Assembly (NCBI GenBank): GCA_028285545.1
Contig: JANQPA010000119.1
Coordinates: forward strand, 1 to 21,140
Length of the DNA: 21,140 bases
Origin: Saprospiraceae bacterium
GTDB lineage: Bacteria; Bacteroidota; Bacteroidia; Chitinophagales; Saprospiraceae
Direction of reading: 5' to 3'
Position numbers and translations under genes: made by a program. Of this stretch, positions 1 through 19,442 are shown one piece after another (within the stretch, counting starts at the first letter, position 1; every line of letters starts with the position of its first letter). The notes under the pieces are model-generated. The model saw only the letters and a list, made by a program, of their open reading frames with translations. It was not told the origin of the DNA and did no database searches.

Positions 1-64
1 TACCAGACTACCAGACTACCAGACTACCAGACTACCAGACTACCAGACTACCAGACTACCAGAC
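1..64. repeat. Perfect tandem array of the 8-bp unit TACCAGAC (8 copies), truncated by the window start
   Basis: Direct reading: taccagac repeated 8 times from position 1 to 64, then tactat. The same octamer family recurs at 17976-18046 and as a solo near 15785. Confidence 0.9.
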
Positions 65-198
65 TACTATAACCCCATACTTCACTCCCTTCATTTCCCT
101 TTTCACTACAATGAAATGTTTTTAGGAGGAAAGGTATTGCATCTTTGGGGTGTTAATAACCTCAATAACCTTATTTAAATCAAAATAAACCAAACCAA

Positions 199-3901: not shown

Positions 3902-5599
3902 TTACATTTTTTTATACACCGCATGAGGATCGCTATTCACCAAAAAACCATCCTGCTTGAACTGAAGGAATGCAGTAGTCTCATATTTTATATTCCAGGT
4001 CATAAACTCATTTTCTCCTATGGGAATGAGAAAGGCTTCAAACCTTTCGGGAATATAATAGGGGTGGAGAGCTATTCGCCCATTGGGTATGCGGGTAGCT
4101 CTAAGGAGGAAGGGGCCATTCTCAAATTTTAATTCCATGAAAATTTGTATTTCCAATTCGCCTTGATAAAAATAGGGGCGTTTGTGTAAGATTTTCATGC
4201 TCTTATATTTTCCATATCCCGCTTTTAATTGATTCCAAACGCTGCTATACTGAACTTTGAATCGATCGAATAAACCTTCAAAAAATACATCCTTTAGAGG
4301 TTCAAAATCATTCCTGTTGATATGATCTATAGTAAATTCAAGTTGATCATCCTTTTCTGAAGCCCATTTTTCTTCATCAGGGAATAAAAGATTTCTGATT
4401 AGCTTGGTATCGGTTGTTCTTAGTTTAATTTGGTTAGAAATTTTGCCTGCTGAAATGTTAGCACTTGAATTACCAATTTGATATTTTCCGAAGTGTTTTT
4501 CTAAATTCACTGCACTAGCCTTATATGGAGAACTAGGAGGAAACTTGGTATAACCACCAAAAACAATAGACTCAACTTCTTGCATAATGTTCTCATGCCG
4601 AAGAGTCTCATTCATATTGGTATTGCCAAGGAAAATAACTACTAAATCTTCTTCTACAAAATGATAGAAACCAGTGACCATACCCAACCAACTATCATAA
4701 CCACCGTGATAAATCAATTGAGTACCACGAATGGTTTTTCGGACATTCCAACCGTAGGCATAATTATCCTTCTCAACTTTTAATAATTTTTGCTTTGATT
4801 TTTCAGTCAATAATTTATTAGAATGAAAAATTAGCTGATACCATTTATACATATCTTCGACGGTGGACAGGGTTACTGTAAATGGCCAGCTGAGTGGATT
4901 AGAAGACAATTTTAAGTCTGTATTAGAAACAGGCCAGTCCATGTATTGAGCTACCTGACCTTTTTTCCATTTTATGGATTTATTACCGGTATACCTCATC
5001 CCATTGGGTTTGAAGATATCTTCCACCAAAAACTGGATTCTAGGCTTTCCGGTTTTCAACTCAATAATTTTTGCTAAAATATCATAGCCAAAATTGGAAT
5101 AGCTAAAGGTCGTTCCAGGCTTATATTCCAGATCCTTTTCCAGCACTTTTGCAATAAATTGAGAGAAACTCAAATCTCTGTATTCTTTGTTATCCCAGTA
5201 AGCATTTCTCAATCCAGAAGTATGAGTTAATAATTGATGAATAGTAATTTCGGATTTATCTGTTGGGACATTAGACAAATGATCATCAATTTTATCATTA
5301 GTATTTAGAAGTCCCCTTTGTTCTAAAGTTAATATAGCCACAGCTGTGAACTGCTTCATAATGGATGCAATAGAATAGGCAGGCATTGAATTTAGAGTAG
5401 CTTCTTCGTTTCCGTAATTATTTTTAAAAATAATACCCTCCTTATTCCCAATGAGTAAACTTCCTGATAGGCCAAAAGCTTCCAGCTTTTTGAAATAGGT
5501 ATCAATAGCTTTGGCTGAAGAGGGAAGCGCATCTTGAGCAAAGGTATTTGTATGTACCAGGCATAGGGTGACCACTAAAGTAGTGACAAACTGCTTCAT
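3902..5599 (-). CDS. beta-lactamase-family serine hydrolase (PBP4/AmpC-like fold) with a ~200-aa C-terminal extension (565 aa)
   Basis: Signal peptide. S-x-x-K motif (ASIMKQF), Y-x-N motif (YSNFGY) and HGG (KTG-equivalent, HGGYDSW), correctly ordered. An extra C-terminal domain of unknown function follows. Confidence 0.85.
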   Translation of the reverse strand: MKQFVTTLVVTLCLVHTNTFAQDALPSSAKAIDTYFKKLEAFGLSGSLLIGNKEGIIFKNNYGNEEATLNSMPAYSIASIMKQFTAVAILTLEQRGLLNTNDKIDDHLSNVPTDKSEITIHQLLTHTSGLRNAYWDNKEYRDLSFSQFIAKVLEKDLEYKPGTTFSYSNFGYDILAKIIELKTGKPRIQFLVEDIFKPNGMRYTGNKSIKWKKGQVAQYMDWPVSNTDLKLSSNPLSWPFTVTLSTVEDMYKWYQLIFHSNKLLTEKSKQKLLKVEKDNYAYGWNVRKTIRGTQLIYHGGYDSWLGMVTGFYHFVEEDLVVIFLGNTNMNETLRHENIMQEVESIVFGGYTKFPPSSPYKASAVNLEKHFGKYQIGNSSANISAGKISNQIKLRTTDTKLIRNLLFPDEEKWASEKDDQLEFTIDHINRNDFEPLKDVFFEGLFDRFKVQYSSVWNQLKAGYGKYKSMKILHKRPYFYQGELEIQIFMELKFENGPFLLRATRIPNGRIALHPYYIPERFEAFLIPIGENEFMTWNIKYETTAFLQFKQDGFLVNSDPHAVYKKM

Positions 5600-5629: not shown

Positions 5630-5675
<46 letters not shown>

Positions 5676-5694
5676 ATATTACATATAACTCCCA

Positions 5695-6645
5695 TCATTT
5701 CGATTCATCAATCAATATACTTTCACTTAAGTCAATTGCTTGTCCATTATAATCAGTAGTCCAACCAAACTTGACCTTAAAAGAACCTTCTCTGGCAACG
5801 TTGACAATAATATTACTGGCGATATCAGTTCCTGGAATGCTCATCGTAATTTTAAAATCCCGGACCAGGAACAATTCTTTTGTTTTTCTTTTCTTTTGAT
5901 GGTGGACCCTGTACCAATAATCGATCCCAGCTTTTTTGGCTAATTCATAGACTCTTCTGAAATCCGATTCCGTAGAATATTCATTCAGGGTGAACACTTT
6001 TTCTGTGCTGTCAACTTTTGATTGATCTGAATCAGAATTTAATATTAAATCCCTCTCTTCAGGATTAGACTTTTGAGTTGCAGAGATTTTCTCCTCTACT
6101 TTTTGGCTGTTTTCTATTTCGAAAAGATCTGCAGTTTCGGTAAAAAAAGACTGTGGAAGGTCCCTAAAAGTAATTTTTGTTCCCGAGTTCATATTGTTAG
6201 TTAGGGTATCGGTATCAAGAGAGATAAGGAAGGTATCAATTTGCTTTCTTTTGTCATCATTAGTATTTCTAGGCTTTTCTTTAGGTCCATCTTTTACTTG
6301 ATCAGCTACTTTTCTGTCTTCTAATTCTATTTTTGGCTCATTTCCCTGAGCAAGGATTATTTTGGTATTATCGGAGTATACGTCGGTTATGGTTTCTTTA
6401 TTGAGGTTCTGATTATTTGTATTATAGCTCAGAAATACGGTGGTACCAATTAAAACTGCGGTGCTTGTAATAAAAAGGCTGGTTTTATTAATTATATTTT
6501 TAAAAATTCCGTTGCTCCATTTAGTTATTCCTCCTCCGGATATGCTTGTAGAAAATCTTTTGCTTACCTCATCGAAAGAAAGCTTGGGCTCCTGCGATTT
6601 AGCAGACTGAAATAATTCATCTAGTGGGCGCTCTCTTTTATTCAT
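5695..6645 (-). CDS. putative anti-sigma factor (single-pass membrane protein, 316 aa)
   Basis: The ATGA start/stop overlap with the upstream ECF sigma gene indicates translational coupling. A short cytoplasmic N-terminus is followed by one TM helix (SLFITSTAVLIGTTVFLSY) and an extracytoplasmic domain. Confidence 0.7.
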   Translation of the reverse strand: MNKRERPLDELFQSAKSQEPKLSFDEVSKRFSTSISGGGITKWSNGIFKNIINKTSLFITSTAVLIGTTVFLSYNTNNQNLNKETITDVYSDNTKIILAQGNEPKIELEDRKVADQVKDGPKEKPRNTNDDKRKQIDTFLISLDTDTLTNNMNSGTKITFRDLPQSFFTETADLFEIENSQKVEEKISATQKSNPEERDLILNSDSDQSKVDSTEKVFTLNEYSTESDFRRVYELAKKAGIDYWYRVHHQKKRKTKELFLVRDFKITMSIPGTDIASNIIVNVAREGSFKVKFGWTTDYNGQAIDLSESILIDESK

Positions 6646-7166
6646 GACGGATTATTTTTATTTAATTGGGAAAGAGGAGCAGGGTTCAGTAGCTGAGTCA
6701 GTTTTTTTCGGCCCCGCACAAGCCTTTGTTTTACCACAGAAATAGAAACATCATGTAATTCAGCAATTTCTTTAATAGAAAAACCTGTAATTTCAAATAA
6801 AATGAGGCTCTCTTTTTGAGTTTCAGGAAGCTTAGCAAGAGCTTGATAGAGCAGGTGAACATCAGCATCCCTATCCGTACGAATATCACTTGATACATTC
6901 AAAATCTGTTCACTATCGTGATAGCTAAGCTCTTTTTTTTTCTTATTATAATTTGATAGTACCCTGAGGCAAATGCTAAATAAATAGGAAAGAAATGCTT
7001 TTTCTGATTTTAACTCGTGAAACTTTTGGAAGGCAATAACCAGGGTGTCATTCATCAAATCACCGTACTCCATTTGTCCAAACACCCTTGCCCTGCAAAA
7101 ACGTTCAAATCGGTCATGAACCGGTTTGTAGAGTGATAAAAATTTCTTTTGCCTTTTAGTGTTCAT
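6642..7166 (-). CDS. RNA polymerase ECF-type sigma-70 family sigma factor (174 aa)
   Basis: Region 2 (DLMNDTLVIAFQKF) and region 4.2 HTH (FSIKEIAELHDVSISVVKQRLVRGRKKL). The size is typical of ECF sigma factors. Confidence 0.85.
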   Translation of the reverse strand: MNTKRQKKFLSLYKPVHDRFERFCRARVFGQMEYGDLMNDTLVIAFQKFHELKSEKAFLSYLFSICLRVLSNYNKKKKELSYHDSEQILNVSSDIRTDRDADVHLLYQALAKLPETQKESLILFEITGFSIKEIAELHDVSISVVKQRLVRGRKKLTQLLNPAPLSQLNKNNPS

Positions 7167-9946: not shown

Positions 9947-10189
9947 TCATTTATCCTCTCTTAGATTTTCTTCATTTAGCTTACCTAGTTCTTGGTTGAT
10001 CTCATCGGAGATTTCCTGAACTTCATCAGAGGTAGCTTTACTTTTGGAAACAAGTGTTTTGTATTTGATTAAATCTAAAAGCTCTTGTATGTCAGATAAT
10101 TCAATAAGACCTTTAGGGATGGATATGATTAATTCATTTGGATTGTTTGTAATCTTCATCTTGTCTACTTTTATTCTAACAATTACCAT
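9947..10189 (-). CDS. hypothetical small acidic protein (80 aa, or 70 aa from the internal Met at 10159)
   Basis: The ORF fits exactly between flanking genes. The sequence is charged and helical-looking. No recognisable motif. Confidence 0.35.
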   Translation of the reverse strand: MVIVRIKVDKMKITNNPNELIISIPKGLIELSDIQELLDLIKYKTLVSKSKATSDEVQEISDEINQELGKLNEENLREDK

Positions 10190-10291: not shown

Positions 10292-10690
10292 CTATTCTAA
10301 AAGATGATTATCAATATATTCATTAATATAATTAATAATTTGATTTTGTTCTGTTGTTCTAAACTCAGTTTTTTCAAAAAAACAATTTGGAGGCCAAATT
10401 AATTGCTCTTTAATTGCAATAGTTCTTAATTCTCTCCAATCTTCTCTTTTAGTATTCTGAAAGGCCCAAATTCGCCATTTAACAATTCTAAAACTCCACC
10501 AAATCCAAGCTGAAATTATTCCTAGCATCATTCCAACTATCATTCCTAAATCAGTATAATCTTTAGATAAAATTTTGGGCGCAAGAATGATTGACCCTAG
10601 TGCAAAGATTGAGATAATTATGGCAACTGGAATGTTTACCGTTGTTTGCCCAACGCTAATTACTTTATCTATTGTTTGATATTGTTTCAC
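10292..10690 (-). CDS. hypothetical small membrane protein with 2 TM helices (132 aa)
   Basis: Two clear hydrophobic helices (IPVAIIISIFALGSIILAP and LGMIVGMMLGIISAWIWWSF). Same strand and immediately downstream of the giant ATPase gene. Confidence 0.6.
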   Translation of the reverse strand: MKQYQTIDKVISVGQTTVNIPVAIIISIFALGSIILAPKILSKDYTDLGMIVGMMLGIISAWIWWSFRIVKWRIWAFQNTKREDWRELRTIAIKEQLIWPPNCFFEKTEFRTTEQNQIINYINEYIDNHLLE

Positions 10691-10799
10691 TATGATAAAA
10701 AACTACCCTTTGAGCTATAAAAAAATTATGTACACTTTCATATTAAAATACTTTGATTCAATTTCTTTTATTACTCATTTAACCAAACTACTACTAGTC

Positions 10800-13700
10800 C
10801 TACTTCTTTTGATTTTTCTCAATCGCCTCCTTAATTCCTTCTACACCATCCGTAAAGGCAGACAACTGAGCAATCACCTGCCCCATCGGATTATTGGCAT
10901 CTACTCCCTTAAAGAGTTTGTTTTTATTGAAGGTCTTTTTAATTTCTTCCCATCTGGATTTTTCTTCCTCAGAGATCCAACCTAACATTTCCTTCAATTT
11001 TAACAAGTTGGCTTCTGCATCTGCCGTCAGCGTTTGTGCTTCGCCTTCATAGTGATCCAGGATAAGGGTTTGCAATTCCTGATCATTGAGGATAGGGACT
11101 ATTTTTTCTGCCAATTTATTCATGTCTCGATAAGAGCCTTGTAATTTAAAAGCGGGTTCTGTTCTATATTCATCAGACATGGCAGCTGAGCGGATGTATT
11201 CTTGGTTGACGGTAAGGATAGTATCCCTTACCAGTAATAGTTTACTTAAAACAGCCAGATATTCATTTGTATCTTCGGCACCATATTGTCCTTCAAACTC
11301 GGCACCATCCCTTGAGCCTGTTTCTGCAATTTTGATGAAGGTATACACATCCTTCATGTTTTTCCCTGCCAGGCGATTCAAGCTCGGATTAGAAGTCAAT
11401 GAGTTTTCAATATAACTCATCTTGAAGGCATCAGCAGTTTCTCCTATGATATCACCGAGGTTGTAAATATCTGCTCTGTTGGCAAGCATATCAGGAATTT
11501 GGAATTTAGCACCACTTTCGGTGTAGGGATTACCTGCCATAACTACGCAAAATCTTTTGCCACGCAAGTCATAGGTTTTACCTATTCCATTATAAACACC
11601 CTCAATTTTTCGCTGGGCATCACATAATGAGATGAATTTCTGTAAAAATTCAGGGTTGCAATGTTGGATATCGTCCAGGTATAACATAATATTATCGCCC
11701 ATCTCCAGGGAAAGATTGAGTTTGTTCAATTCTTTACGTGCGGCCATGCTTGGAGCATCCTCTGGAGCCAGAGAAGTGACTTCATGTCCAATAGCTGGGC
11801 CGTTTATTTTTACAAAGATCAAACCCAAGCGATTGGCAATATATTCCATCAATGTGGTCTTACCATAGCCAGGAGGTGATATTAGTAGTAACAAGCCCAT
11901 TCGATCGGTCCGTGTATCTTCTCCAACTGTTCCCAATTGTTTAGCAAAATTATTACCAAAAATAGGTAGGTATACCTTGTCAATTAGTTGATTGCGAACA
12001 AATGAACTTAGTACTCTAGGCTGAAATTCATTCAACTGTAACTTCTGACGATACTCTTCGTTCAGTTGTTTTTTTAGCGAGCTATAAGCTTCAAATTGTG
12101 GGCAAGCTTCTGTAGTGAAGTGCTCCAATTTATCCATAAACTGATGGAAGTCAAAAGCGTAAGTCCCATTTTCTAAAACGGCATGATCCCCATGAAAACC
12201 CATTAATTGAGCTTGGGTGGGAGTGTCAATTATTTTACTTTTTTCTAAATCCCCTGCCATAATCAACATACTGGCTTCATCAAGATAGGCCCATAGGTTG
12301 GCCTCTTCTATTTGTTCAATATAAGCTTGAAGCCATCTGCGAATAAGATTGAATTGTGGTCTGGACTGGCCATCCAATTCTTTAACAGAATTATTGAAAA
12401 TGGTGACGGCTTTTTTCTTTTTGATAAAGGCCTTAAAGTCCTTGCTTAGATCTACGGCCTCTTTACTGGCTACAAAATGCTCGGACCGGGCTAATTCCTT
12501 GAACAAATAATTGGCAACCCTAGAAGCTAATGCTTCAGGAAAAAGTCTAGATTCTCCTAAAAACAGGCCGATTTCCTGACTTAACTCTTCAATTAGATAA
12601 TCAAACTCATGAGTGTCTGGAAAAACTTGTAAAATTACTCCGGCACTTTTAAGTTGATTGTTTAGTAAGATCTTTCGTTCTTTTTTAGCAAAAAATAGCC
12701 AAAACAGCTTTCCACAAGCTCTTACCCTGGGCGTGAAATATAACAGATCCAGTCGATCCGAAAGATCCACTAATTGAGCTAAGATTTTAGCTGCATCCTC
12801 ATCATGGATACCTTTGGTATACCCTTCCTCATATCGGTTGGCAGCAAATTCCTGAACCAAGGGCAGAAGATCTTTTTTATTTTTCTTTAATACCTTTTGA
12901 GATGCTGTTTGATATATCTGAAAGGCCAGGTATTCTGATCGGTATACTTGATTATTTTCAGAAACCAGACTTTGATTCCAAACTTCTTTAGTGTCTAAAA
13001 ATCGAGGATCCTGGATGGGCTCATAAAATTCGGTGCCTGTTAAATGGAAACTCATTCCTCCATTATCTCTTACAATGGTCAATTCCAGCGGCTGGGTATT
13101 AACAGAAAACTGGTGTTTTCCCAATTTCATTACATTAGCGCCTCCAACATACAAATCCTGACGATCTCTCAATTGCCTTAAAGCCTCTTCCCTGAGGGAT
13201 TTGAGTCTTGTTTGAATGCCACCTGCTTTGTTGCTATCATCTTGTTCATTCAGATCGCGAATGATATCCCGAACTTTATCAACCATAAGGTCGGATGCAA
13301 AGAAGCTGTTTATTTCATTAATTTCTTTGAAAGCAGCGGTTCTTTTTTGTATCCCTTCCAGGATTCTATTTGCGGCATTTTGGAGAGCTGCTGTCCTGTT
13401 GTTTCGGGCTTCTACCAATGCATTTCTTCTGGTTTCAAAAGCACTGTAAACCTCTTCTCTTTTTTCTGCCAATGAGGTAGTGAATTCAGGGATTTCCACA
13501 AAGCGACTTTCCAGCTCCTCTAGTTGAACCATTAATTTGGAGAGGTACTCATCACATTTTTGTGGATTATCAGATACTTCCAAAAAGTTGATAATGCTTT
13601 GATCCAGTAGGCGCATCTGGGCATTAAATTCTGCTCCGGCCTCTGTTTTTGCCAGATGATCTTTTTTGCGCTTAATAGCTGCTTTGACCTGATTAAGGCG

Positions 13701-15695
13701 AGTAAATAGTACAGAGATATTATCAATGATGCGGGTACTTTGGGTGGCATCTTCGATTTTTAGATTACTGACAATCTCAATTAATAATTCCAGTTCAGTA
13801 CCAATTTGATTGGCACACTCTTCTAATTCGTTGGCTTTTTTGGCCGTATTTAGATCTTTGATTTCAGCCTCTCGGGCCTCAATTTTTTTATCATAGGGTA
13901 ATAATGCTTCATCTTGTAATAAAAATGAAATACATCCCTCGGATAATTGCTGACTATTGGTATCAATCTCCTCCTCCAGATGAGTGATGGTTTCGGTATT
14001 GGCATAGGGAAGATCCTTCAGACTAATTACCTCTCCACGTAATTGCCGCAGCTCAGCCAGAATTGTAACAAATTGGTCGACAGAGTCAAAAGATTGTCTG
14101 CGTATTTGATCAAATAAGTTTTGGGCATGGATTTGAACCTGGTTAATTTCCTCCTGGGTTTGTTTCTGACTTCTGACTTTCTTTTCATAAGCATCAATAG
14201 CGGCATTAGCTGTTTCTCGGATATCCGCCAGCGGCTCATTTAGCTGAAAAGTAGAAGCATCATTTAACCAATAGTAGGAATCGATGACATCGGTACATTT
14301 TTTTACCAGGTCATCATATAAATCAGCATAATTATCTTCTTTGCTGCTTAGTACCAGAATTTCCGTACATTCTGCCATGGCCCGAACAATGTCCTTATTG
14401 CCAATTTTGTACAGGTAAGAGTTGGTATGCTCGGACGGAACTTCTTCGCCGGCTACAAAAGGAGTTTGCCAGATTTGAATGACATGATGCTTGATGGGAT
14501 CTTCCTCAGATCGAAAATAACACAATTCTCCACCGGGAAATAGGGTGAAACCATTGCAAAGGATAGGGGTTTCGACCTTTTGTTCAATTACATTATAGTG
14601 CAATAAAACATAAATACCCTTCTTTTTATCGTAAAAAACATAGAGATAATCTTCACCATTGGGCGACACGATGCGCTTTTTAAAAAGCTTATTGCGCATA
14701 TCAGGATCGAAGATCTTGTACTCCCCGGTTTTTAGATAATAGCCATTGGCAAAAATTAAACCATGCTCATCCGGGAGCAGAACACCCGAATCTTCCAGGG
14801 AGTCAATGCGCTGCACTTCCTGCATTTTTTCATTAAAAACAAAATATCGATATTCCTCCTGGTAGGGACGAATTTTTAGGGCAATCAAATTACCCAGGTT
14901 CGCATATAAATACTCTGCATCATCAAGGGTCTGGTCCTTATATTCCACATCCTCACTATAAATACCTCGGCCATCCTCTGTATTATCTTCTACCTTAATG
15001 GTTAAATCGCCACCTACTGTTTCTACAAAAACACGATCAAGAACAGACACATGAGGATGATCTCCTTTTTTGTGATCATCACGTCCTAGTCTTTTCCATT
15101 TGAATTCATGTTGCTGAGGAAAACGAACCTCATGATCGGATCGATTATCAATATATTGAATGCCTTCATCGGTGATCAACCATTTGAAGGTTTTAAAATC
15201 ATCTCCTTTTTCCGTTAAATGGAATACCATATATAGGTAAGAACCTCTTTGAGAAAAACGAGCGAAGTAGGCATCCTTATAGTACCGATAAAGATTGGTG
15301 AAGTCCAGTTGAAATTTTTCATCGTCAAGAATGGACAAATCTTTTTCTACAAAACGCTGCTCTTTAAACTCATAAATGCTGAATACATCCTTGAGTTGAA
15401 TTCCTGAGCGAAGTCCCACATGCACATTATAGCCAAAGACACAGTTATTGCCAATGGCTACAATATCCCTGGCAATACAATAATTGCTAGTGTTGACACG
15501 GTCAGTAGCAATCAATTGTGTTTCTATGGCACCAAAAACTTCCTTTCTTGCACGATTCAATTCCTGCATCCGTTTCCTCAATTCAGTGGCTTGCGCATCG
15601 AGGCGGTTGCGAATTATTTCATAGGTGCCACTTTCTAGTTGTGGGTTGTGTTGTGTAGTATCTTGGATATTGCTTGACATTTGAAATGTATTCAA
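10800..15695 (-). CDS. giant multidomain protein (1631 aa): beta-rich N-terminal domain, then a long coiled coil, then an alpha-helical region, then a C-terminal MoxR/dynein-type (AAA_5-like) AAA+ ATPase
   Basis: The uninterrupted 4.9-kb ORF begins at a TTG at 15695; the first ATG is at 15680 (MSSNIQ...). Walker A LISPPGYGKTT is encoded at 11856-11870 and Walker B MLYLDDIQH follows. The VVMAGNPYTESGAKFQIPDMLANRADIY segment gives the sensor and arginine pattern of MoxR/McrB/dynein-like AAA+ domains. Heptad-rich E/K/L/Q segments are at about 13000-14100. Confidence 0.85.
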   Translation of the reverse strand: MNTFQMSSNIQDTTQHNPQLESGTYEIIRNRLDAQATELRKRMQELNRARKEVFGAIETQLIATDRVNTSNYCIARDIVAIGNNCVFGYNVHVGLRSGIQLKDVFSIYEFKEQRFVEKDLSILDDEKFQLDFTNLYRYYKDAYFARFSQRGSYLYMVFHLTEKGDDFKTFKWLITDEGIQYIDNRSDHEVRFPQQHEFKWKRLGRDDHKKGDHPHVSVLDRVFVETVGGDLTIKVEDNTEDGRGIYSEDVEYKDQTLDDAEYLYANLGNLIALKIRPYQEEYRYFVFNEKMQEVQRIDSLEDSGVLLPDEHGLIFANGYYLKTGEYKIFDPDMRNKLFKKRIVSPNGEDYLYVFYDKKKGIYVLLHYNVIEQKVETPILCNGFTLFPGGELCYFRSEEDPIKHHVIQIWQTPFVAGEEVPSEHTNSYLYKIGNKDIVRAMAECTEILVLSSKEDNYADLYDDLVKKCTDVIDSYYWLNDASTFQLNEPLADIRETANAAIDAYEKKVRSQKQTQEEINQVQIHAQNLFDQIRRQSFDSVDQFVTILAELRQLRGEVISLKDLPYANTETITHLEEEIDTNSQQLSEGCISFLLQDEALLPYDKKIEAREAEIKDLNTAKKANELEECANQIGTELELLIEIVSNLKIEDATQSTRIIDNISVLFTRLNQVKAAIKRKKDHLAKTEAGAEFNAQMRLLDQSIINFLEVSDNPQKCDEYLSKLMVQLEELESRFVEIPEFTTSLAEKREEVYSAFETRRNALVEARNNRTAALQNAANRILEGIQKRTAAFKEINEINSFFASDLMVDKVRDIIRDLNEQDDSNKAGGIQTRLKSLREEALRQLRDRQDLYVGGANVMKLGKHQFSVNTQPLELTIVRDNGGMSFHLTGTEFYEPIQDPRFLDTKEVWNQSLVSENNQVYRSEYLAFQIYQTASQKVLKKNKKDLLPLVQEFAANRYEEGYTKGIHDEDAAKILAQLVDLSDRLDLLYFTPRVRACGKLFWLFFAKKERKILLNNQLKSAGVILQVFPDTHEFDYLIEELSQEIGLFLGESRLFPEALASRVANYLFKELARSEHFVASKEAVDLSKDFKAFIKKKKAVTIFNNSVKELDGQSRPQFNLIRRWLQAYIEQIEEANLWAYLDEASMLIMAGDLEKSKIIDTPTQAQLMGFHGDHAVLENGTYAFDFHQFMDKLEHFTTEACPQFEAYSSLKKQLNEEYRQKLQLNEFQPRVLSSFVRNQLIDKVYLPIFGNNFAKQLGTVGEDTRTDRMGLLLLISPPGYGKTTLMEYIANRLGLIFVKINGPAIGHEVTSLAPEDAPSMAARKELNKLNLSLEMGDNIMLYLDDIQHCNPEFLQKFISLCDAQRKIEGVYNGIGKTYDLRGKRFCVVMAGNPYTESGAKFQIPDMLANRADIYNLGDIIGETADAFKMSYIENSLTSNPSLNRLAGKNMKDVYTFIKIAETGSRDGAEFEGQYGAEDTNEYLAVLSKLLLVRDTILTVNQEYIRSAAMSDEYRTEPAFKLQGSYRDMNKLAEKIVPILNDQELQTLILDHYEGEAQTLTADAEANLLKLKEMLGWISEEEKSRWEEIKKTFNKNKLFKGVDANNPMGQVIAQLSAFTDGVEGIKEAIEKNQKK

Positions 15696-15735
15696 GTTTT
15701 CAAGTTAGCAAGTTTTCAAGTTAACTTGCTAACTT
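15691..15735. promoter_or_regulatory. TTCAAGTT x4 tandem octamers overlapping a perfect 13-bp-stem hairpin, in the 5' region of the giant ATPase gene
   Basis: Four octamer copies: ttcaagtt, ttcaagtt, agcaagtt, ttcaagtt. aagttagcaagtt (15702-15714) pairs with aacttgctaactt (15723-15735), loop ttcaagtt. A T-tract follows on the plus strand (ctaggcttttt). Confidence 0.6.
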
Positions 15736-15862
15736 CTAGGCTTTTTGGAAAGATCTGATCTTCCTAAATTGTTCATGGCAGCCCTAGACTACCACGAACA
15801 AAACAATATGTCTCTATTTATCTCATGGCGCGATAGCGACATATATCTCTATCTGTCTCTTT

Positions 15863-17953
15863 TTACAAAACTTCAGCGGCTTTCTGGTCACCCATGCCCA
15901 GGGATTTGACCATGGCACGGATGTTATCGATGGTTGATTGCTGACTATCATTGGCCTTATCGCTCAATTTAAAGAGCAGGGCTGAGATGGTCAGGTTTTT
16001 GATGTCATCAGAAGTGACTCCCATTTGTTTGACCAGTTGGCGAAGACGACTTAGCAGACCACTATGACCATTCGAGCCATTTCCATGGATCAGGGCATTT
16101 TTTATCTGACTAAGCTGTTCGCTGCTTCCGATCAAGCCATCAATGGTTTTACCACGATTGACTGCATTGAGGATGCTGTTTACAAATTGCATTTCTCCAC
16201 CGACGATATCGATGTTGGCATTTTTCAGAGCTTCTGCTAAGACTGTAGCCTGTGCCTGTGCCACATCTTTTTGTACATTGATGTGTGCCAGTTCGATTTC
16301 TTTTTCTTTCTCCAGGCGAAGTTTAAACTCTTCATGGTCTTTACCTACACCATCTAGTTTTTGCATAGCAACAGCTTTCAACTCGACACCTTTGGCTTCG
16401 GCGGTATATTTTTCTTCCATCACTTTAGCTTCTACCAAACCTTGTTTTTCCATGGCATCGGCTTTTACTTCAATACCTTTAGCTTCAGCCTGGGCTTTTT
16501 TCTCCAGGACATTAGCTTCAAGATTACCCTCTAACTCCTTCGCTTTAGCTTTCGCTTCAATCACCTGAGCTTCGGAAAGACCGATGGTAGCCTCTTCAGC
16601 TGCTTTGGCTTCGGCAGATATTTTTCGAGCATCAGCCTCTTTCTCGGCAGCATTTTTTTGAGCTTCTGCTTCAATCAATAGTGTCTGAGCTTTTATTTCA
16701 GCAGCCAATTTCTCGGCTTCAGCTGCTTTTTCCTGCTCAATTACGGTAGATTCACCTACGGCTTCTGCTTCAATAACTGTCTTTTGCTTTAAACGTTCGG
16801 CCTCTGCCAGGACACGGGTATCTTTGATGCGCTCTTCTTCTTCTACCACCTTTTTCTCTACCATGATTCGATCTCTAATTACATCCTGGATATTTTTCTT
16901 TTCTTCTTCAATGGCCTTTTCTTTTTCAATTTCGGCCAGAGTTACGATTTTTTCACGCTCTGTTTGTTCCAGAGCACGATCTTTCTCTACTCTTTCAGTC
17001 TCGACCGCTTCAGTACGTTCTTTATTTTTGGCAGCTACGATAACCTGACGCAATTTATTTTCTTCCAAGATGGCCAATTCCTCTTCTGTTTTTATGCGTA
17101 CAGACTCTGATCGAAGACGCTCTTCTTCATTGATTTTGGCAATCTCTGCTCCTTCACGCGCTTTAATGTTGGCGATTTCTCGCTTTTGGCGTTCTTCTTT
17201 TTCTGCTAACTGACGCTCATATTCCAGAATAGCTTCACGAGCTTCTACATTCTGCTCTTTGAGTGTTTTCTCTTCTTCCCGACGGATGAAGTTTGCTTTT
17301 ACTTTTTGCTGAGCTGTTAGTTCGGTGATCTTTTTGATACCTTCGGCATCCAGGATATTACTTTCTTTGAGGTAGTTAATATCCGTTTGTTCTAAATAAT
17401 CTATGGAGCAATCGTCTAATACATAACCATTCAAATCTTCACCAATAGTACTTTGAATTTCTTGATTGAAATTTTTTCTATTATCGTATAGTTCAATGAA
17501 ATCGAAGCGTTTCCCAACTGTTTTAATGGCCTCCGAAAATTTGGCCTCGAATAATTCTCTTAATGTGTCAGAGTCAGAAGCTCTTTGGCATCCAATAGAC
17601 TGAGCAACATTTTTGATGTCTTGTGTATCTTTATTAATTCTAACGAAAAATACGACTTTTATATCTGCACGTATATTATCCTTACATATCAAACCATCCT
17701 CTTTCATTCGAACAATTTCGATTGTTTTTATTGAAAGATCCATTGTCTCATACATTTCAATAACGGGAATGACTAAAAGCCCATTCTCAAAAGCAACTCG
17801 AGTTTTACGAGCACCTGTAGCAATGATTGCTTTTCCTTGAGGAACTTTTTTATACCATCGAGCAATGGCAATGCAGATAGCAAAGAAAAATACAGCTAGA
17901 ATCACCCCTAAAGTGATCCATACATTTTGAAAAATCGTTGCTAATAATATCAT
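15863..17953 (-). CDS. flotillin-family SPFH/band-7 protein (YqiK/FloT-like), 696 aa, with an N-terminal membrane anchor and a very long Glu/Ala/Lys-rich coiled coil
   Basis: N-terminal TM helix (ITLGVILAVFFFAICIAIARWY). SPFH domain (GKAIIATGARKTRVAFENGLLVIPVIEMYETMDLSIKTIEI...). About 330 aa of EA-repeat coiled coil. A C-terminal flotillin-like tail. Confidence 0.9.
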   Translation of the reverse strand: MILLATIFQNVWITLGVILAVFFFAICIAIARWYKKVPQGKAIIATGARKTRVAFENGLLVIPVIEMYETMDLSIKTIEIVRMKEDGLICKDNIRADIKVVFFVRINKDTQDIKNVAQSIGCQRASDSDTLRELFEAKFSEAIKTVGKRFDFIELYDNRKNFNQEIQSTIGEDLNGYVLDDCSIDYLEQTDINYLKESNILDAEGIKKITELTAQQKVKANFIRREEEKTLKEQNVEAREAILEYERQLAEKEERQKREIANIKAREGAEIAKINEEERLRSESVRIKTEEELAILEENKLRQVIVAAKNKERTEAVETERVEKDRALEQTEREKIVTLAEIEKEKAIEEEKKNIQDVIRDRIMVEKKVVEEEERIKDTRVLAEAERLKQKTVIEAEAVGESTVIEQEKAAEAEKLAAEIKAQTLLIEAEAQKNAAEKEADARKISAEAKAAEEATIGLSEAQVIEAKAKAKELEGNLEANVLEKKAQAEAKGIEVKADAMEKQGLVEAKVMEEKYTAEAKGVELKAVAMQKLDGVGKDHEEFKLRLEKEKEIELAHINVQKDVAQAQATVLAEALKNANIDIVGGEMQFVNSILNAVNRGKTIDGLIGSSEQLSQIKNALIHGNGSNGHSGLLSRLRQLVKQMGVTSDDIKNLTISALLFKLSDKANDSQQSTIDNIRAMVKSLGMGDQKAAEVL

Positions 17954-17975
17954 GACTGTTGTTTTTTGGGTTGAA

Positions 17976-18046
17976 TGGTAGACTGGTAGGCTAGTGGTCT
18001 GGTAGTCTGGGAATATTCCCTAATACTAGACTACCAGACTACCAGC
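17976..18046. repeat. Inverted array of the TACCAGAC octamer family: about 4 reverse copies (tggtagac, tggtaggc, tagtggtc, tggtagtc), a spacer containing the 12-bp palindrome gggaatattccc, then about 2.5 forward copies (agactaccagactaccag). Sits in the NfeD-flotillin intergenic gap.
   Basis: Direct reading. ctggtagtctgg (17999-18010) is the exact reverse complement of ccagactaccag (18034-18045). Confidence 0.85.
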
Positions 18047-18054
18047 ACACCATA

Positions 18055-18708
18055 CTACTTTTTCTCAATTAAATAATATTTATCATCCTCTGTTTTGCCA
18101 ATGATGATGGCTTGTTCCCCAGATGATATGGGGTCTTTGTCGTTTTCAGTTTTTACATTTATTAAGTTAGGGGTGTCGTCAATCAGTACTTCAGCCTGTC
18201 CAAATTTGGTAGCACTGGCCGGTAATTTGAGCCTGCATTCCATTCCAACATAATCAATTGCCTCAGCAGTCGTATCTAATCGCTTAAAAACAGGAATTAA
18301 TGGAGTGCTCAATATTTTGGCAACTACTAAATTTACAAATAGAATAGGAATAAACATAGCTAAGGCAAAAAGAGCACTTCCTTGTCCAATGTAATAATTA
18401 CTCAGGATAGACAAAACCCAACCACTCATGGCCACAAAGGTGATGATAACCATAAAGGGCATTTTACCGAAATTAAAGAAGTGAAGTGTTCCAGCCAGCC
18501 AGCCAGTTGTGGTCCCAGCTTCCACATCTGCATCTACATCCACATCTGCGTCAAGATCAATATCGGCATCAATGTCAAAATCCAAATCGAAAGAACTCAA
18601 ATCAATCGCCCCCAGGATAACAGATAGCCAATAAAATATGACCAGCAGTAATAAAATAGTGTAAAATAAATTTACAGGTAAAAAAGCAACCTGGAGTAAT
18701 TCTTGCAT
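18055..18708 (-). CDS. NfeD/YqiJ-like inner-membrane protein (flotillin partner) with a C-terminal OB-fold and an unusual Asp-rich repeat (217 aa)
   Basis: Multiple TM helices. A C-terminal beta-barrel-like tail (GQAEVLIDD...AIIIGKTEDDKYYLIEK) is typical of NfeD short homologues. The DLDFDIDADIDLDADVDVDADVE acidic repeat sits after the first TM. The position immediately upstream of a flotillin gene mirrors yqiJ-yqiK. Confidence 0.75.
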   Translation of the reverse strand: MQELLQVAFLPVNLFYTILLLLVIFYWLSVILGAIDLSSFDLDFDIDADIDLDADVDVDADVEAGTTTGWLAGTLHFFNFGKMPFMVIITFVAMSGWVLSILSNYYIGQGSALFALAMFIPILFVNLVVAKILSTPLIPVFKRLDTTAEAIDYVGMECRLKLPASATKFGQAEVLIDDTPNLINVKTENDKDPISSGEQAIIIGKTEDDKYYLIEKK

Positions 18709-18761
18709 AGTTGATTCTTTTTATTGAAAAATTTTTGTCGAAGACAAAAACTTTTCAATAC

Positions 18762-18974
18762 CTATAAAATGTTTTCATGGATCTTTTGCTTCATGCCAAT
18801 AGTCATATAAAGGATTGATCCAATTAAAGGTAGAAAAATAATCAAAAGTAACCAGATAACCTTATCGCTATCTCCTTTAAAATCAGCTCTAATTATGTCT
18901 ACAATACAATATATCCATAATACGGTACAGCCGATACCAATAAGAAGAATGAATAAGACAAATAATGCTGCCAT
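18762..18974 (-). CDS. PLDc_N-domain small membrane protein (70 aa)
   Basis: Two TM helices with the characteristic KVIWLLLIIFLPLIGSILYM motif of the PLD-nuclease N-terminal mini-protein family. Confidence 0.75.
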   Translation of the reverse strand: MAALFVLFILLIGIGCTVLWIYCIVDIIRADFKGDSDKVIWLLLIIFLPLIGSILYMTIGMKQKIHENIL

Positions 18975-19442
18975 TGTGGTTTGTTTTAAGTTTAAAAAGT
19001 TTTTTGAACCTTAAGAGTTTTCAGCATCCAATACTGAAACTTTAAAAAGTTTTTTTAAGGGTGTTAAGTGGTGGTGTTTTAAGTCAGTAAAGAAAGTGGC
19101 AATGCTGCCCTTTCTTACTGCTTCAATAATTAATCCTGAAATTTGGATTGATGTTAATTGTATTCAATTGGATTGTTTCATTTAATTTTTTGGATACCCT
19201 AAAAATGCTGTGTAGGAGAGCATTTTGCTACTTTTGTCGTCGAAAATCTTTAAAAATCCGACCAAAGATTAACAAAGCTATAACGTATATAAGAAGAATG
19301 ATTTTGCCTTTAGAGACTTTGAATAATTATTGTAAATGTATTGTTATTGGGATGAAATTGGGGATACTTGCTAAGGATTAGGCCCTAAAATTGATTTTTG
19401 ACACTGATTTACACGGATTGGCACTGTTTTTTACTATTTACC

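What the first reader, a model, noticed from the sequence alone, without database searches (positions are those of the whole stretch)
10292..18974. Candidate four-to-six gene membrane cassette: PLDc_N mini-protein, NfeD/YqiJ-like, flotillin (YqiK-like), giant AAA+ protein, plus two small downstream genes
NfeD-SPFH gene pairs (yqiJK, yuaF-floT) are established. Here the pair is extended in the same orientation by a PLDc_N mini-membrane protein upstream and a 1631-aa AAA+ coiled-coil protein downstream. A 2-TM 132-aa protein and an 80-aa acidic protein follow. The intergenic gaps of 100-180 bp carry structured repeat elements rather than obvious terminators, which leaves open coordinated but attenuated expression. 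If the linkage is conserved, the flotillin scaffold is coupled to an ATP-driven partner, which I do not know to be described for bacterial flotillins.
Basis: inference. Interest (0 to 1): 0.75.

Follow-up and report, generated by a model that had tools for sequence, protein, structure and literature searches.

The report
Conserved flotillin operon with giant ATPase
A membrane-scaffold gene pair (YqiJ-like plus flotillin) is followed in bacteria of at least six phyla by a 1,600-residue ATPase gene; this link was already reported from comparative genomics but has never been tested experimentally.

Summary
The six ORFs are real, at the stated coordinates, all on the minus strand. Only three form a conserved unit: a YqiJ/NfeD-like membrane protein, a YqiK-type flotillin and a 1,626-1,631-aa soluble protein (beta-propeller DUF3686, long helical region, MoxR-like AAA+ domain).

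In 65 genomes from six phyla with enough flank, 59 have the flotillin directly upstream of the giant gene on the same strand and one has it adjacent but divergent. Nearly all of these also carry the YqiJ-like gene.

The PLDc_N mini-protein is kept only in the closest relatives found (giant protein 78-83% identical). The 132-aa and 80-aa genes are not conserved even in those.

The linkage is not new. Ravi et al. (mSystems 2024, PMC11237479) described this operon, often preceded by CesT/Tir-PspA, as part of the phage-shock envelope-stress network. The window holds their "abbreviated" form. I found no experimental work.

New here:
- the linkage counts;
- a recurrent stem-loop just after the flotillin stop codon across phyla;
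- frequent insertion of selfish genes at that spot.

The likely function, which is inferred, is ATP-driven remodelling of a cytoplasm-facing flotillin (and PspA) scaffold. The instance is ordinary; the module is understudied.

The parts
18762..18974 (-). 70-aa PLDc_N mini-protein with two TM segments. It is a lineage-specific first gene of the cassette.
   Evidence: Pfam PF13396, 47.2 bits; two TM-like segments. It is conserved directly upstream of the YqiJ-like gene in L081 (80% identity) and L082/L083 (72%), with three different upstream neighbours. It was not found in L001-L080.
18722..18760 (-). AT-rich hairpin with an 18-bp stem between the PLDc_N and YqiJ-like genes
   Evidence: Inverted repeat I8, 94% complementary; MFE -17.7 kcal/mol, z -6.19.
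18055..18708 (-). 217-aa YqiJ/YuaF-type NfeD-like membrane protein: TM segment, acidic (D-x)n repeat, two TM segments, C-terminal beta-rich domain
   Evidence: Profile of 29 orthologues against E. coli YqiJ: hhalign probability 96%, E 3.4e-9, full length. Pfam YqiJ_N scores 19.3 bits in this protein, and 12 of 29 orthologues match. TM segments. It sits upstream of the flotillin in 56 of the 57 loci counted.
17984..18052 (-). Long hairpin made of two inverted arrays of the octamer GGTAGTCT/AGACTACC, in the YqiJ-flotillin gap
   Evidence: MFE -40.5 kcal/mol, z -6.91; tandem arrays at 17976-18010 and 18024-18058. The motif has 13 matches in the window against 0.48 expected. No Rfam family reaches threshold.
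15863..17953 (-). 696-aa YqiK-type flotillin: N-terminal membrane anchor, SPFH domain, long Glu/Ala/Lys-rich coiled coil, conserved C-terminal region
   Evidence: Band_7 E 8e-12. BLASTP against E. coli YqiK: 30% identity over 439 aa, E 4e-48. One TM-like segment at residues 13-31. Orthologues next to the giant gene are at least 43% identical to each other across phyla.
15702..15801 (-). Three stem-loops (15769-15801, 15748-15764, 15702-15735) in the flotillin-giant gap. The first carries one GGTAGTCT copy; the last overlaps a (TTCAAGTT)x4 tandem.
   Evidence: MFE -46.6 kcal/mol, z -4.92; tandem repeat. Relatives L081 and L082 have unrelated but equally strong hairpins at the same place. The signal is general across 61 loci.
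10800..15680 (-). Giant soluble ATPase, 1626 aa from the ATG at 15680 or 1631 aa from the TTG at 15695. In ORF numbering: N-terminal helix, beta-propeller (DUF3686, residues 38-475, DNA 14271-15584), long helical region including DUF7902 (residues 596-678, DNA 13662-13910), a small beta domain, a helical domain, a MoxR-like AAA+ core (about residues 1261-1460, DNA 11316-11915) and a C-terminal helical bundle.

Best explanation
The window carries one instance of a widespread three-gene membrane module: a YqiJ/NfeD-like 3-TM protein, a YqiK-type flotillin, and a giant cytoplasmic protein with a beta-propeller, a long helical region and a MoxR-like AAA+ domain (Pfam DUF3686 family, which NCBI names 'DNA repair ATPase'). 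It is the 'abbreviated' form of the PspA-associated envelope-stress operon described by Ravi et al. 2024. It lacks the CesT/Tir-PspA dyad and the divergent HTH-S24 regulator that precede the trio in many Flavobacteriia and Cytophagia. In this Saprospiraceae-like subclade a PLDc_N two-TM mini-protein sits in front instead. The 132-aa and 80-aa genes downstream are unrelated neighbours.

**Shown:** gene identities, conserved order and orientation across six phyla, co-divergence of the three proteins, intact ATPase motifs, absence of a TM segment or protease domain in the giant protein, and structured intercistronic hairpins.

**Inferred mechanism:** The flotillin, anchored by its N-terminal hydrophobic segment and organised with the YqiJ-like partner, assembles a cytoplasm-facing SPFH cage or patch on the inner membrane. 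The giant ATPase oligomerises through its MoxR-like AAA+ ring and docks through its propeller and helical arms on the flotillin coiled-coil cap, or on PspA polymers encoded here or elsewhere. It then uses ATP to assemble, disassemble or reshape that scaffold, or to extract clients from it, during membrane stress. The stem-loop after the flotillin gene probably lowers expression of the giant gene relative to the scaffold, so few motors serve many scaffold subunits.
For: - **Linkage.** 59 of 65 loci with enough flank have the flotillin upstream on the same strand, plus 1 divergent; 56 of the 57 counted also have the YqiJ-like gene.
- **Extended operon.** Between 24 and 29 loci carry HTH-S24 | CesT_Tir_1 -> PspA -> YqiJ -> flotillin -> giant, confirmed by Pfam. 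This matches the literature row for Dokdonia; L075 is a Dokdonia locus with the same gene string.
- **Co-divergence.** Mantel r is 0.87 for giant-flotillin and 0.81 for giant-NfeD, with 0 of 2000 permutations as high.
- **Strong constraint.** Giant proteins are at least 45% identical pairwise over about 1,600 aa across phyla. The AAA+ core has 0.83 mean column conservation, and the Walker A/B, sensor and Arg residues are invariant.
- **Topology.** The giant protein has no TM segment; the flotillin has one N-terminal anchor followed by RWYKK.
- **Hairpins.**
- **Promoter hint.** The only Bacteroidetes-type -7 box in the cassette's intergenic DNA lies upstream of PLDc_N (weak evidence).
- **Precedent.** SPFH scaffolds working with AAA+ machines are established for HflK/C-FtsH and prohibitin-m-AAA (named in PMC2636767).
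Against: - No experiment exists for any member. I found no paper mentioning DUF3686, and none pairing 'DNA repair ATPase' with flotillin.
- Physical contact between flotillin and the giant protein was not tested.
- In many genomes unrelated genes sit between the flotillin and the giant gene, and a strong hairpin follows the flotillin gene. The two may therefore be separate transcription units.
- Five of 65 giant genes have no flotillin nearby.
- Walker B is Asp-Asp rather than Asp-Glu, so the ATPase may be a slow switch rather than a processive motor.
- MoxR ATPases usually work with a VWA partner, and none is present here.
Confidence: 0.6

Rival explanations
1. The giant ATPase is functionally tied to the locus but does not act on flotillin. 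It remodels PspA (ESCRT-III-like) polymers or other membrane clients, and the flotillin/YqiJ pair only provides the membrane platform. Alternatively, the two are separately transcribed units of one stress regulon.
For: CesT/Tir-PspA precedes the trio in 24-29 loci. A strong stem-loop and inserted genes often separate the flotillin and giant genes. A 2025 review notes that no Vps4-like ATPase is known for bacterial PspA (PMC7619361).
Against: The flotillin is present next to the giant gene far more often (60 of 65) than PspA (about 29 of 65). The window and its relatives have no PspA in the locus. Giant and flotillin distances correlate tightly (r 0.87).
Confidence: 0.25
2. One reading: a six-gene co-functional cassette comprising PLDc_N, NfeD, flotillin, the giant protein, the 132-aa membrane protein and the 80-aa acidic protein.
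For: All six genes are on the same strand with short gaps. No sigma-70-like or Bacteroidetes -7 box stands out in the internal gaps.
Against: The 132-aa and 80-aa genes are missing from L081, L082 and L083, where HAD_2 or CarboxypepD_reg genes follow the giant gene. The 132-aa protein has a single distant homologue among 5.8 billion proteins. The gaps flanking these two genes lack the structured elements seen upstream. PLDc_N is absent from L001-L080.
Confidence: 0.07
3. The cassette is an anti-phage or other conflict system, in which a membrane sensor or effector is coupled to a large NTPase.
For: It pairs a large ATPase with membrane proteins. An HTH-S24 (LexA-like) regulator lies next to the extended form. 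Selfish genes are often inserted in the locus. The flotillin C-terminus gives a weak iSTAND hit (18.7 bits, below cut-off).
Against: PADLOC gives no hit for five of the six proteins. The giant protein has only a zero-stretch P-loop match to mad8. The surroundings are housekeeping genes rather than a defence island. Conservation is very high and uniform across phyla with a fixed architecture, which is unlike fast-evolving defence genes.
Confidence: 0.05
4. The giant protein is a DNA repair ATPase, as NCBI and Pfam name it, and its position next to the flotillin is incidental.
For: Only the names: 'DNA repair ATPase' and 'ATPase involved in DNA repair'. There are also weak P-loop hits to RuvB.
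Against: No DNA-binding, nuclease or SMC-type domain was detected. The RuvB hits cover about 45 residues of the P-loop. The best structural matches are MoxR-type remodellers. The gene context is membrane proteins in 92% of loci.
Confidence: 0.02

Closest known systems
PspA-associated CesT/Tir + YqiJ/YuaF + band-7/flotillin + beta-propeller-coiled-coil-AAA+ operon (Ravi, Anantharaman et al., mSystems 2024, PMC11237479; example ANH61663.1, Dokdonia donghaensis)
   Same: It has the same three core genes in the same order and orientation. The same giant-protein family is involved: L075 from Dokdonia sp. carries the DUF3686 protein in the gene string listed in the paper's supplement. The paper explicitly mentions abbreviated operons with only the flotillin, YqiJ/YuaF and, in some cases, the AAA+ ATPase.
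   Different: The window has no CesT/Tir, no PspA and no HTH-S24 regulator. A PLDc_N two-TM mini-protein precedes the trio here. The paper mentions a full PLD/HKD hydrolase in some Proteobacteria, not this mini-protein. The paper gives no linkage counts, no AAA+ clade assignment and no experiments.
E. coli yqiJ-yqiK and B. subtilis yuaF-floT NfeD-flotillin pairs
   Same: A YqiJ-type 3-TM/OB protein is followed by a flotillin with an N-terminal anchor, an SPFH domain and a long coiled coil. The flotillin is 30% identical to YqiK, and the NfeD profile matches YqiJ over its full length.
   Different: No giant ATPase follows yqiK in E. coli K-12; small sib/ibs genes and hldE follow instead. The flotillins linked to the giant gene form a tighter group, at least 43% identical across phyla.
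HflK/C-FtsH and prohibitin-m-AAA protease supercomplexes
   Same: An SPFH-family scaffold is functionally coupled to an AAA+ machine at the membrane. This is the best functional analogy.
   Different: FtsH is a membrane-anchored AAA+ protease enclosed by a periplasm-facing cage. Here the ATPase is soluble, has no peptidase domain, has a MoxR-like fold and is about 1,600 aa long, and the flotillin faces the cytoplasm. It is an analogue, not a member.
MoxR-family AAA+ remodellers (CbbQ, NorQ, RavA)
   Different: There is a roughly 1,250-residue N-terminal extension and no VWA partner gene in the locus. Walker B is DD rather than DE. Sequence identity is only 14-17%.
Vps4-ESCRT-III
   Same: The hypothesised logic is the same: an AAA+ ATPase recycling a membrane-bound polymer. 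PspA, an ESCRT-III relative, is in the extended operon.
   Different: No MIT domain was detected, and the ATPase belongs to a different AAA+ group.

Membership tests
YqiJ/YuaF-type NfeD proteins | N-terminal multi-TM region homologous to YqiJ_N | tested here: met
   There are three TM-like segments. Pfam YqiJ_N scores 19.3 bits, below the 23-bit cut-off, in this protein, and 12 of 29 orthologues match at E<0.01. The orthologue profile against E. coli YqiJ gives hhalign probability 96%, E 3.4e-9 over 187 columns.
YqiJ/YuaF-type NfeD proteins | C-terminal OB-fold (NfeD) domain | tested here: inconclusive
   The hhalign alignment extends through the C-terminal beta-rich region of YqiJ. However, Pfam NfeD matched only 1 of 29 orthologues, and no structure was predicted for this protein.
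YqiJ/YuaF-type NfeD proteins | Encoded directly upstream of an SPFH gene | tested here: met
   This holds in the window and in 56 of the 57 loci counted.
Bacterial flotillins (YqiK/FloT, SPFH2) | SPFH/Band_7 domain after an N-terminal membrane anchor | tested here: met
   Band_7 scores 46 bits against a 23.6-bit cut-off, at residues 36-185. A TM-like segment covers residues 13-31.
Bacterial flotillins (YqiK/FloT, SPFH2) | Sequence homology to a named flotillin, extending into the coiled coil | tested here: met
   BLASTP against E. coli YqiK: 30% identity over 439 aa, E 4e-48.
Bacterial flotillins (YqiK/FloT, SPFH2) | Match to a solved flotillin structure, or to a Pfam family specific to flotillins | tested here: not met
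   The Pfam scan returned no flotillin-specific family for the window protein or for 20 orthologues; only Band_7 and a sub-threshold iSTAND hit appeared. The profile search of PDB sequences found nothing. The single-sequence search found only a weak QmcA hit. This is a sensitivity limit and does not contradict membership.
DUF3686 giant AAA+ family ('DNA repair ATPase') | Full-length DUF3686 domain plus DUF7902 | tested here: met
   PF12458 scores 609 bits over profile positions 1-448 of 448. PF25472 scores 84 bits.
DUF3686 giant AAA+ family ('DNA repair ATPase') | C-terminal AAA+ domain with intact nucleotide-binding motifs, in a protein of about 1,600-1,900 aa | tested here: met
   Walker A GYGKT and Walker B LDDIQH are invariant. 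The fold is confirmed. Full-length family members are 1,600-2,036 aa long.
DUF3686 giant AAA+ family ('DNA repair ATPase') | A role in DNA repair, as the name implies | tested here: not met
   No DNA-related domain was found by Pfam or NCBIfam beyond P-loop-only hits to RuvB. The gene context is membrane proteins. Biochemistry cannot be tested here.
PSP-associated flotillin-AAA+ operon (Ravi et al. 2024) | YqiJ/YuaF, band-7/flotillin and beta-propeller-coiled-coil-AAA+ genes in one directional cluster | tested here: met
   Shown. The propeller and helical architecture comes from the AF2 model and Foldseek.
PSP-associated flotillin-AAA+ operon (Ravi et al. 2024) | CesT/Tir-PspA dyad in the operon (the full form) | tested here: not met
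   No PspA or CesT gene occurs anywhere in the 21-kb window. The dyad is present in 24-29 other loci. The window therefore fits the paper's 'abbreviated' form.
HflK/C-FtsH type SPFH-AAA+ protease complex | The AAA+ partner is membrane-anchored and carries a protease domain | tested here: not met
   The giant protein has no TM segment and no peptidase family by Pfam.
MoxR AAA+ family | MoxR-like ATPase fold | tested here: met
MoxR AAA+ family | Partner VWA-domain protein encoded nearby | tested here: not met
   No VWA domain appears in any window ORF or among the conserved neighbour clusters.
Known anti-phage defence systems (PADLOC) | Match of the component proteins to defence-system models | tested here: not met
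   Five proteins have no hit. The giant protein has only a P-loop fragment match to mad8 (24 bits, no stretch passing on its own).

The most novel reading that the evidence does not exclude
The DUF3686 giant ATPase is the missing ATP-driven recycling or remodelling factor for bacterial flotillin cages and PspA (ESCRT-III-like) polymers. It would be a MoxR-derived functional analogue of Vps4/FtsH that docks on the cytoplasmic flotillin cap. The stem-loop after the flotillin gene would set a scaffold-to-motor stoichiometry.
Probability: 0.3. Interest if true: 0.8.

Novelty: new member of a known kind. Interest (0 to 1): 0.45.

Why it matters
Bacterial flotillins are widely studied as organisers of membrane microdomains, yet how their assemblies are built, reshaped or recycled is unknown. 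A 2025 review of bacterial ESCRT-III-like systems states that no Vps4-like ATPase is known for PspA and that the band-7 partners have undetermined roles (PMC7619361). The three-gene module is under very strong constraint: the 1,600-aa ATPase is about 50% identical across six phyla. It therefore offers a concrete, genetically tractable candidate for an energy-dependent step in flotillin/PspA biology. Culturable carriers include Dokdonia, Tenacibaculum, Hymenobacter, Pontibacter and Flavobacterium. It also shows that the database name 'DNA repair ATPase' is probably misleading. This particular locus adds only a lineage-specific PLDc_N variant.

Tried and rejected
- **Literature.** Searches for 'DUF3686' and for 'DNA repair ATPase' with flotillin gave 0 papers. 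Hinderhofer et al. 2009 on SPFH operons mention no ATPase partner for SPFH2.
- **Databases with no useful hit.** PADLOC. Rfam at E<=0.1 gave only sub-threshold miRNA-hairpin chance hits on the octamer hairpin. The NCBIfam hits were weak, far below each model's cut-off. PDB sequence searches gave P-loop-only hits to p97 for the giant protein, one weak QmcA hit for the flotillin and nothing for the flotillin profile.
- **Rosetta-stone fusion.** P0136 looked like an NfeD1b_N-DUF3686 fusion. Its contig is a 5x long-read assembly in which the giant gene is also split in two, so I treat it as an artefact.
- **Promoters and terminators.** The sigma-70 and terminator scan did not differ from shuffles: 36 against 31 promoter-like sites and 11 against 7.8 terminator-like sites, with none in the gaps. 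The Bacteroidetes -7 box scan found a single site, upstream of PLDc_N. This is weak evidence.
- **Identifying the source record.** The look-up of P0001 failed because the protein is not on record in that index.
- **Small genes in other loci.** Homologues of PLDc_N, the 132-aa and the 80-aa proteins were sought in 83 loci by phmmer and tblastn. Only PLDc_N was found, and only in L081-L083.
- **Six-gene cassette.** I considered and rejected it for lack of conservation.
- **DNA repair and defence readings.** I rejected both for lack of any supporting domain or context.

Full report

| Gene | Coordinates | Evidence |
|---|---|---|
| PLDc_N mini-protein, 70 aa | 18762-18974 | PF13396, 47 bits; two TM segments |
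| YqiJ/NfeD-like protein, 217 aa | 18055-18708 | three TM-like segments, an acidic D-x repeat, a beta-rich C-terminus |
| Flotillin, 696 aa | 15863-17953 | Band_7, 46 bits |
| Giant protein, 1631 aa | 10800-15695 | DUF3686 609 bits, DUF7902 84 bits, AAA 27 bits |
| Two-TM protein, 132 aa | 10292-10690 | no family |
| Acidic protein, 80 aa | 9947-10189 | no family |

The database copy of the giant protein starts at the ATG at 15680 and is 1626 aa. The YqiJ_N Pfam match of the 217-aa protein is below cut-off (19.3 against 23 bits). However, a profile of 29 orthologues aligns with E. coli YqiJ over its full length (hhalign 96%, E 3.4e-9). The flotillin is 30% identical to E. coli YqiK over 439 residues (E 4e-48). 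The best hits of the giant protein come from Saprospiraceae and other Bacteroidota.

**Is the linkage conserved?** I aligned 12 homologues of the giant protein and used the alignment to fetch loci from one genome per species. Of the stretches scanned, 586 encode a relative, and the best 80 were kept. They span Bacteroidota, Planctomycetota, Desulfobacterota, Verrucomicrobiota, Kiritimatiellota and Hydrogenedentota.

- I searched all ORFs of these loci with the window proteins and counted.
- Among 65 loci with at least 3.5 kb upstream, 57 have the flotillin less than 3 kb upstream on the same strand. Two more (L062, L078) overlap the giant ORF by a few bases. One (L068) has the pair adjacent but divergent. 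Five lack it (L016, L020, L045, L063, L073).
- Of the 57, 56 also have the YqiJ-like gene in front of the flotillin.
- Eight further loci with truncated flanks still show the flotillin at the contig edge.
- A genome has only a handful of SPFH genes, so this is far from a chance distribution.
- The three proteins co-diverge: Mantel r is 0.87 for giant-flotillin and 0.81 for giant-NfeD.
- Both large proteins are strikingly conserved. The minimum pairwise identity across phyla is 45% for the giant protein and 43% for the flotillin.

**Extent of the cassette.** Clustering of all neighbouring genes shows three further recurrent partners upstream of the YqiJ-like gene in 24-29 loci, mostly Flavobacteriia and Cytophagia:
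- a divergent HTH_3 + Peptidase_S24 regulator;
- a CesT_Tir_1 protein (PF22550, 189 bits);
- PspA (148 bits).

Four loci also have a DUF4178/DUF350/spermine-synthase operon downstream. None of these genes is in the window.

The window's PLDc_N gene is found only in the closest relatives recovered, L081 (giant protein 83% identical) and L082/L083 (78%). There it again sits directly before the YqiJ-like gene, although the next gene upstream differs in all three cases: DUF4249 in the window, a 58-aa ORF plus DUF2202 in L081, and a peroxiredoxin in L082. This is modest evidence that it belongs to the cassette in this subclade.

The genes after the giant gene differ between these relatives: HAD_2 in L081, overlapping the giant stop codon, and CarboxypepD_reg in L082. 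The 132-aa and 80-aa proteins have no counterpart there. The 132-aa protein has one distant homologue among 5.8 billion proteins. The conserved unit is therefore three genes, four in this lineage, not six.

**Already described.** Ravi, Anantharaman and colleagues (mSystems 2024, PMC11237479; preprint 2020) report an operon that combines:
- CesT/Tir-PspA;
[quoted passage not shown] - a 3-TM YqiJ/YuaF protein;
- in some Proteobacteria, a PLD (HKD) hydrolase.

They add that abbreviated operons with only the flotillin, YqiJ/YuaF and sometimes the ATPase are more widely distributed. Their supplementary row for Dokdonia donghaensis lists the gene string that I find in L075 (Dokdonia sp.) around the DUF3686 protein, so it is the same family. 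I found no experimental study. A 2025 review still lists band-7 partners of PspA as having undetermined roles and says that a Vps4-like ATPase appears absent from bacteria. The coupling of flotillin to an ATPase is thus known from comparative genomics and untested at the bench.

**The giant protein.** Two AF2 models built on 43-sequence alignments have pLDDT 80.5 and 82.0. In numbering from the ATG start, they give:

| Region | Residues |
|---|---|
| N-terminal helix | 17-49 |
| Beta-propeller | 55-405 |
| Very long helices | 422-838 |
| Small beta unit | 851-888 |
| Helical domain | 914-1142 |
| Short beta/helix linker, alpha/beta AAA+ core and C-terminal helical bundle | remainder |

- Foldseek finds only generic propellers for the N-terminus, such as the DCAF1 WD40 domain and tricorn.
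- For the ATPase region Foldseek gave a mix of RuvB, NorQ, CbbQ, MCM and ClpX.
- Walker A (GYGKT, 1276), Walker B (LDDIQH, 1340; Asp-Asp, which from my own knowledge resembles DnaA), N1389 and R1407 are invariant.
- The AAA+ core is the most conserved part, with 0.83 mean column conservation.
- The protein has no TM segment and a net charge of -57.
- The propeller domain alone finds 758 clusters at 50% identity in 1.8 billion representatives. Full-length members are uniformly 1,600-2,036 aa, so the architecture is fixed.
- Nothing supports the database name 'DNA repair ATPase'.

**Intergenic elements.** The three gaps inside the four-gene unit fold far better than shuffles (z -6.2, -6.9 and -4.9). 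The two gaps beyond the giant gene do not.
- The YqiJ-flotillin hairpin (-40.5 kcal/mol) consists of inverted arrays of the octamer GGTAGTCT. The same octamer forms a perfect 8-copy tandem at the contig end (1-67) and occurs once more in the flotillin-giant gap. There are 13 matches against 0.48 expected.
- No Rfam family fits, and no canonical terminator or sigma-70 promoter lies in the gaps.
- Relatives L081 and L082 have unrelated but equally strong hairpins directly after the flotillin stop.
- Testing this generally, the 90 nt after the flotillin stop are more stable than random 90-nt windows of the same locus in 61 loci (median z -1.56; 38% below -2). The 90 nt after the NfeD stop (median +0.28) and after the giant stop (+0.17) are not.
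- The same gap often holds inserted genes: IS200-like Y1 transposases, GIY-YIG, DUF559 and DMP19.

A stem-loop between the scaffold and the motor is thus a recurrent feature. It could be a partial terminator, an mRNA-stabilising element or simply a REP-like landing site.

**Mechanism.**
- *Shown:* a conserved, co-diverging trio of a YqiJ-like membrane protein, a flotillin and a soluble MoxR-like ATPase with large propeller and helical appendages, frequently joined to PspA.
- *Inferred:* the flotillin/YqiJ pair builds a cytoplasm-facing SPFH assembly. The ATPase ring docks through its propeller and helical arms and uses ATP to assemble, disassemble or reshape that assembly (or PspA polymers), or to extract clients, under envelope stress. 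This would be analogous to FtsH with HflK/C, m-AAA with prohibitins, and Vps4 with ESCRT-III.
- I give about 0.9 to 'conserved functional module of the PSP/flotillin envelope network'. I give about 0.4-0.5 to direct remodelling of the flotillin scaffold.
- The main rival is that the ATPase acts on PspA or other clients, with the flotillin only as a platform.
- Defence-system and DNA-repair readings have no support.

**Verdict.** The six-gene extent and the claim of novelty are not supported. This locus is a new member of a computationally described but experimentally untouched operon type, with a lineage-specific PLDc_N variant. Interest is moderate: the instance is ordinary, but the module is a good entry point into how bacterial flotillin/PspA scaffolds are energised.

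Noticed in passing
window 1-67; 17976-18058; 15784-15793: The octamer TACCAGAC/GGTAGTCT forms a perfect 8.4-copy tandem at the very start of the contig. It forms two inverted 4.4-copy arrays that make the -40.5 kcal/mol hairpin between the YqiJ-like and flotillin genes. One further copy sits in a hairpin of the flotillin-giant gap. There are 13 matches against 0.48 expected. It is probably a dispersed genome repeat that also broke the assembly. It is not enriched in the other loci (at most 3 exact copies in any of them).
   Followed up: partly
L001-L080: the 90 nt after each flotillin stop codon: Across 61 loci from several phyla, the sequence right after the flotillin stop folds more stably than random windows of the same locus (median z -1.56; 38% below -2). 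The sequences after the NfeD stop and the giant stop do not. The hairpin sequences are unrelated between genomes.
   Followed up: partly
Flotillin-giant gap in L002, L075, L048, L074, L008, L003, L009, L012: The gap between the flotillin and the giant gene is a frequent insertion site for unrelated small genes. These include IS200-like Y1 transposases (L002, L075), GIY-YIG (L048), DUF559 (L074), DMP19 plus DUF3997 (L008), and genes of unknown function. Y1 transposases are known to target hairpins, which fits the structured gap.
   Followed up: partly
L085 6001-13100 (protein P0136): There is an apparent fusion of an NfeD1b_N (protease-type NfeD) domain to DUF3686. The contig is a 5x long-read assembly and the giant gene is split into 1345 + 982 aa, so the fusion is probably a frameshift artefact. 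If real, it would be a Rosetta-stone link between NfeD and the giant ATPase.
   Followed up: partly
window 11660-11677 (Walker B, residues 1340-1345 of the 1631-aa ORF): Walker B is LDDIQH (Asp-Asp instead of Asp-Glu) and is invariant in 43 homologues. From my own knowledge it resembles the IDDIQF of DnaA. This hints at a slow, switch-like ATPase.
   Followed up: no
window 10292-10690 and 9947-10189: The 132-aa two-TM protein is nearly an orphan, with one 38%-identical homologue among 5.8 billion proteins. The 80-aa acidic protein has no family hit and was not searched further.
   Followed up: partly
L014, L023, L041 and L066, downstream of the giant gene: In four loci a DUF4178 / unknown / DUF350 / 7TM-spermine-synthase operon follows the giant gene. 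This is the polyamine-linked PspA context also described by Ravi et al. 2024.
   Followed up: partly
window 5633-5675; 15691-15722: Two further short tandem repeats occur. (CTTTCTA)x6 lies near the overlap of the 3902-5599 and 5695-6645 ORFs. (TTCAAGTT)x4 straddles the giant gene's alternative start codons.
   Followed up: no
window 5695-7166: An ECF sigma factor (6642-7166) is followed by a 316-aa ORF with no Pfam hit, possibly an anti-sigma factor. It lies about 3 kb downstream of the cassette on the same strand. It is not present in the relatives' loci, so it is probably unrelated.
   Followed up: no
window 18975-19442: A 468-bp non-coding stretch lies upstream of PLDc_N. It holds a direct repeat AA(G/C)TTTAAAAAGTTTTTT(G/T)AA (18988-19008 and 19038-19058). 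It also holds the only Bacteroidetes-type -7 box (TAGCTTTG, at 19280) found in the cassette's intergenic DNA. It is a candidate promoter/operator region.
   Followed up: no
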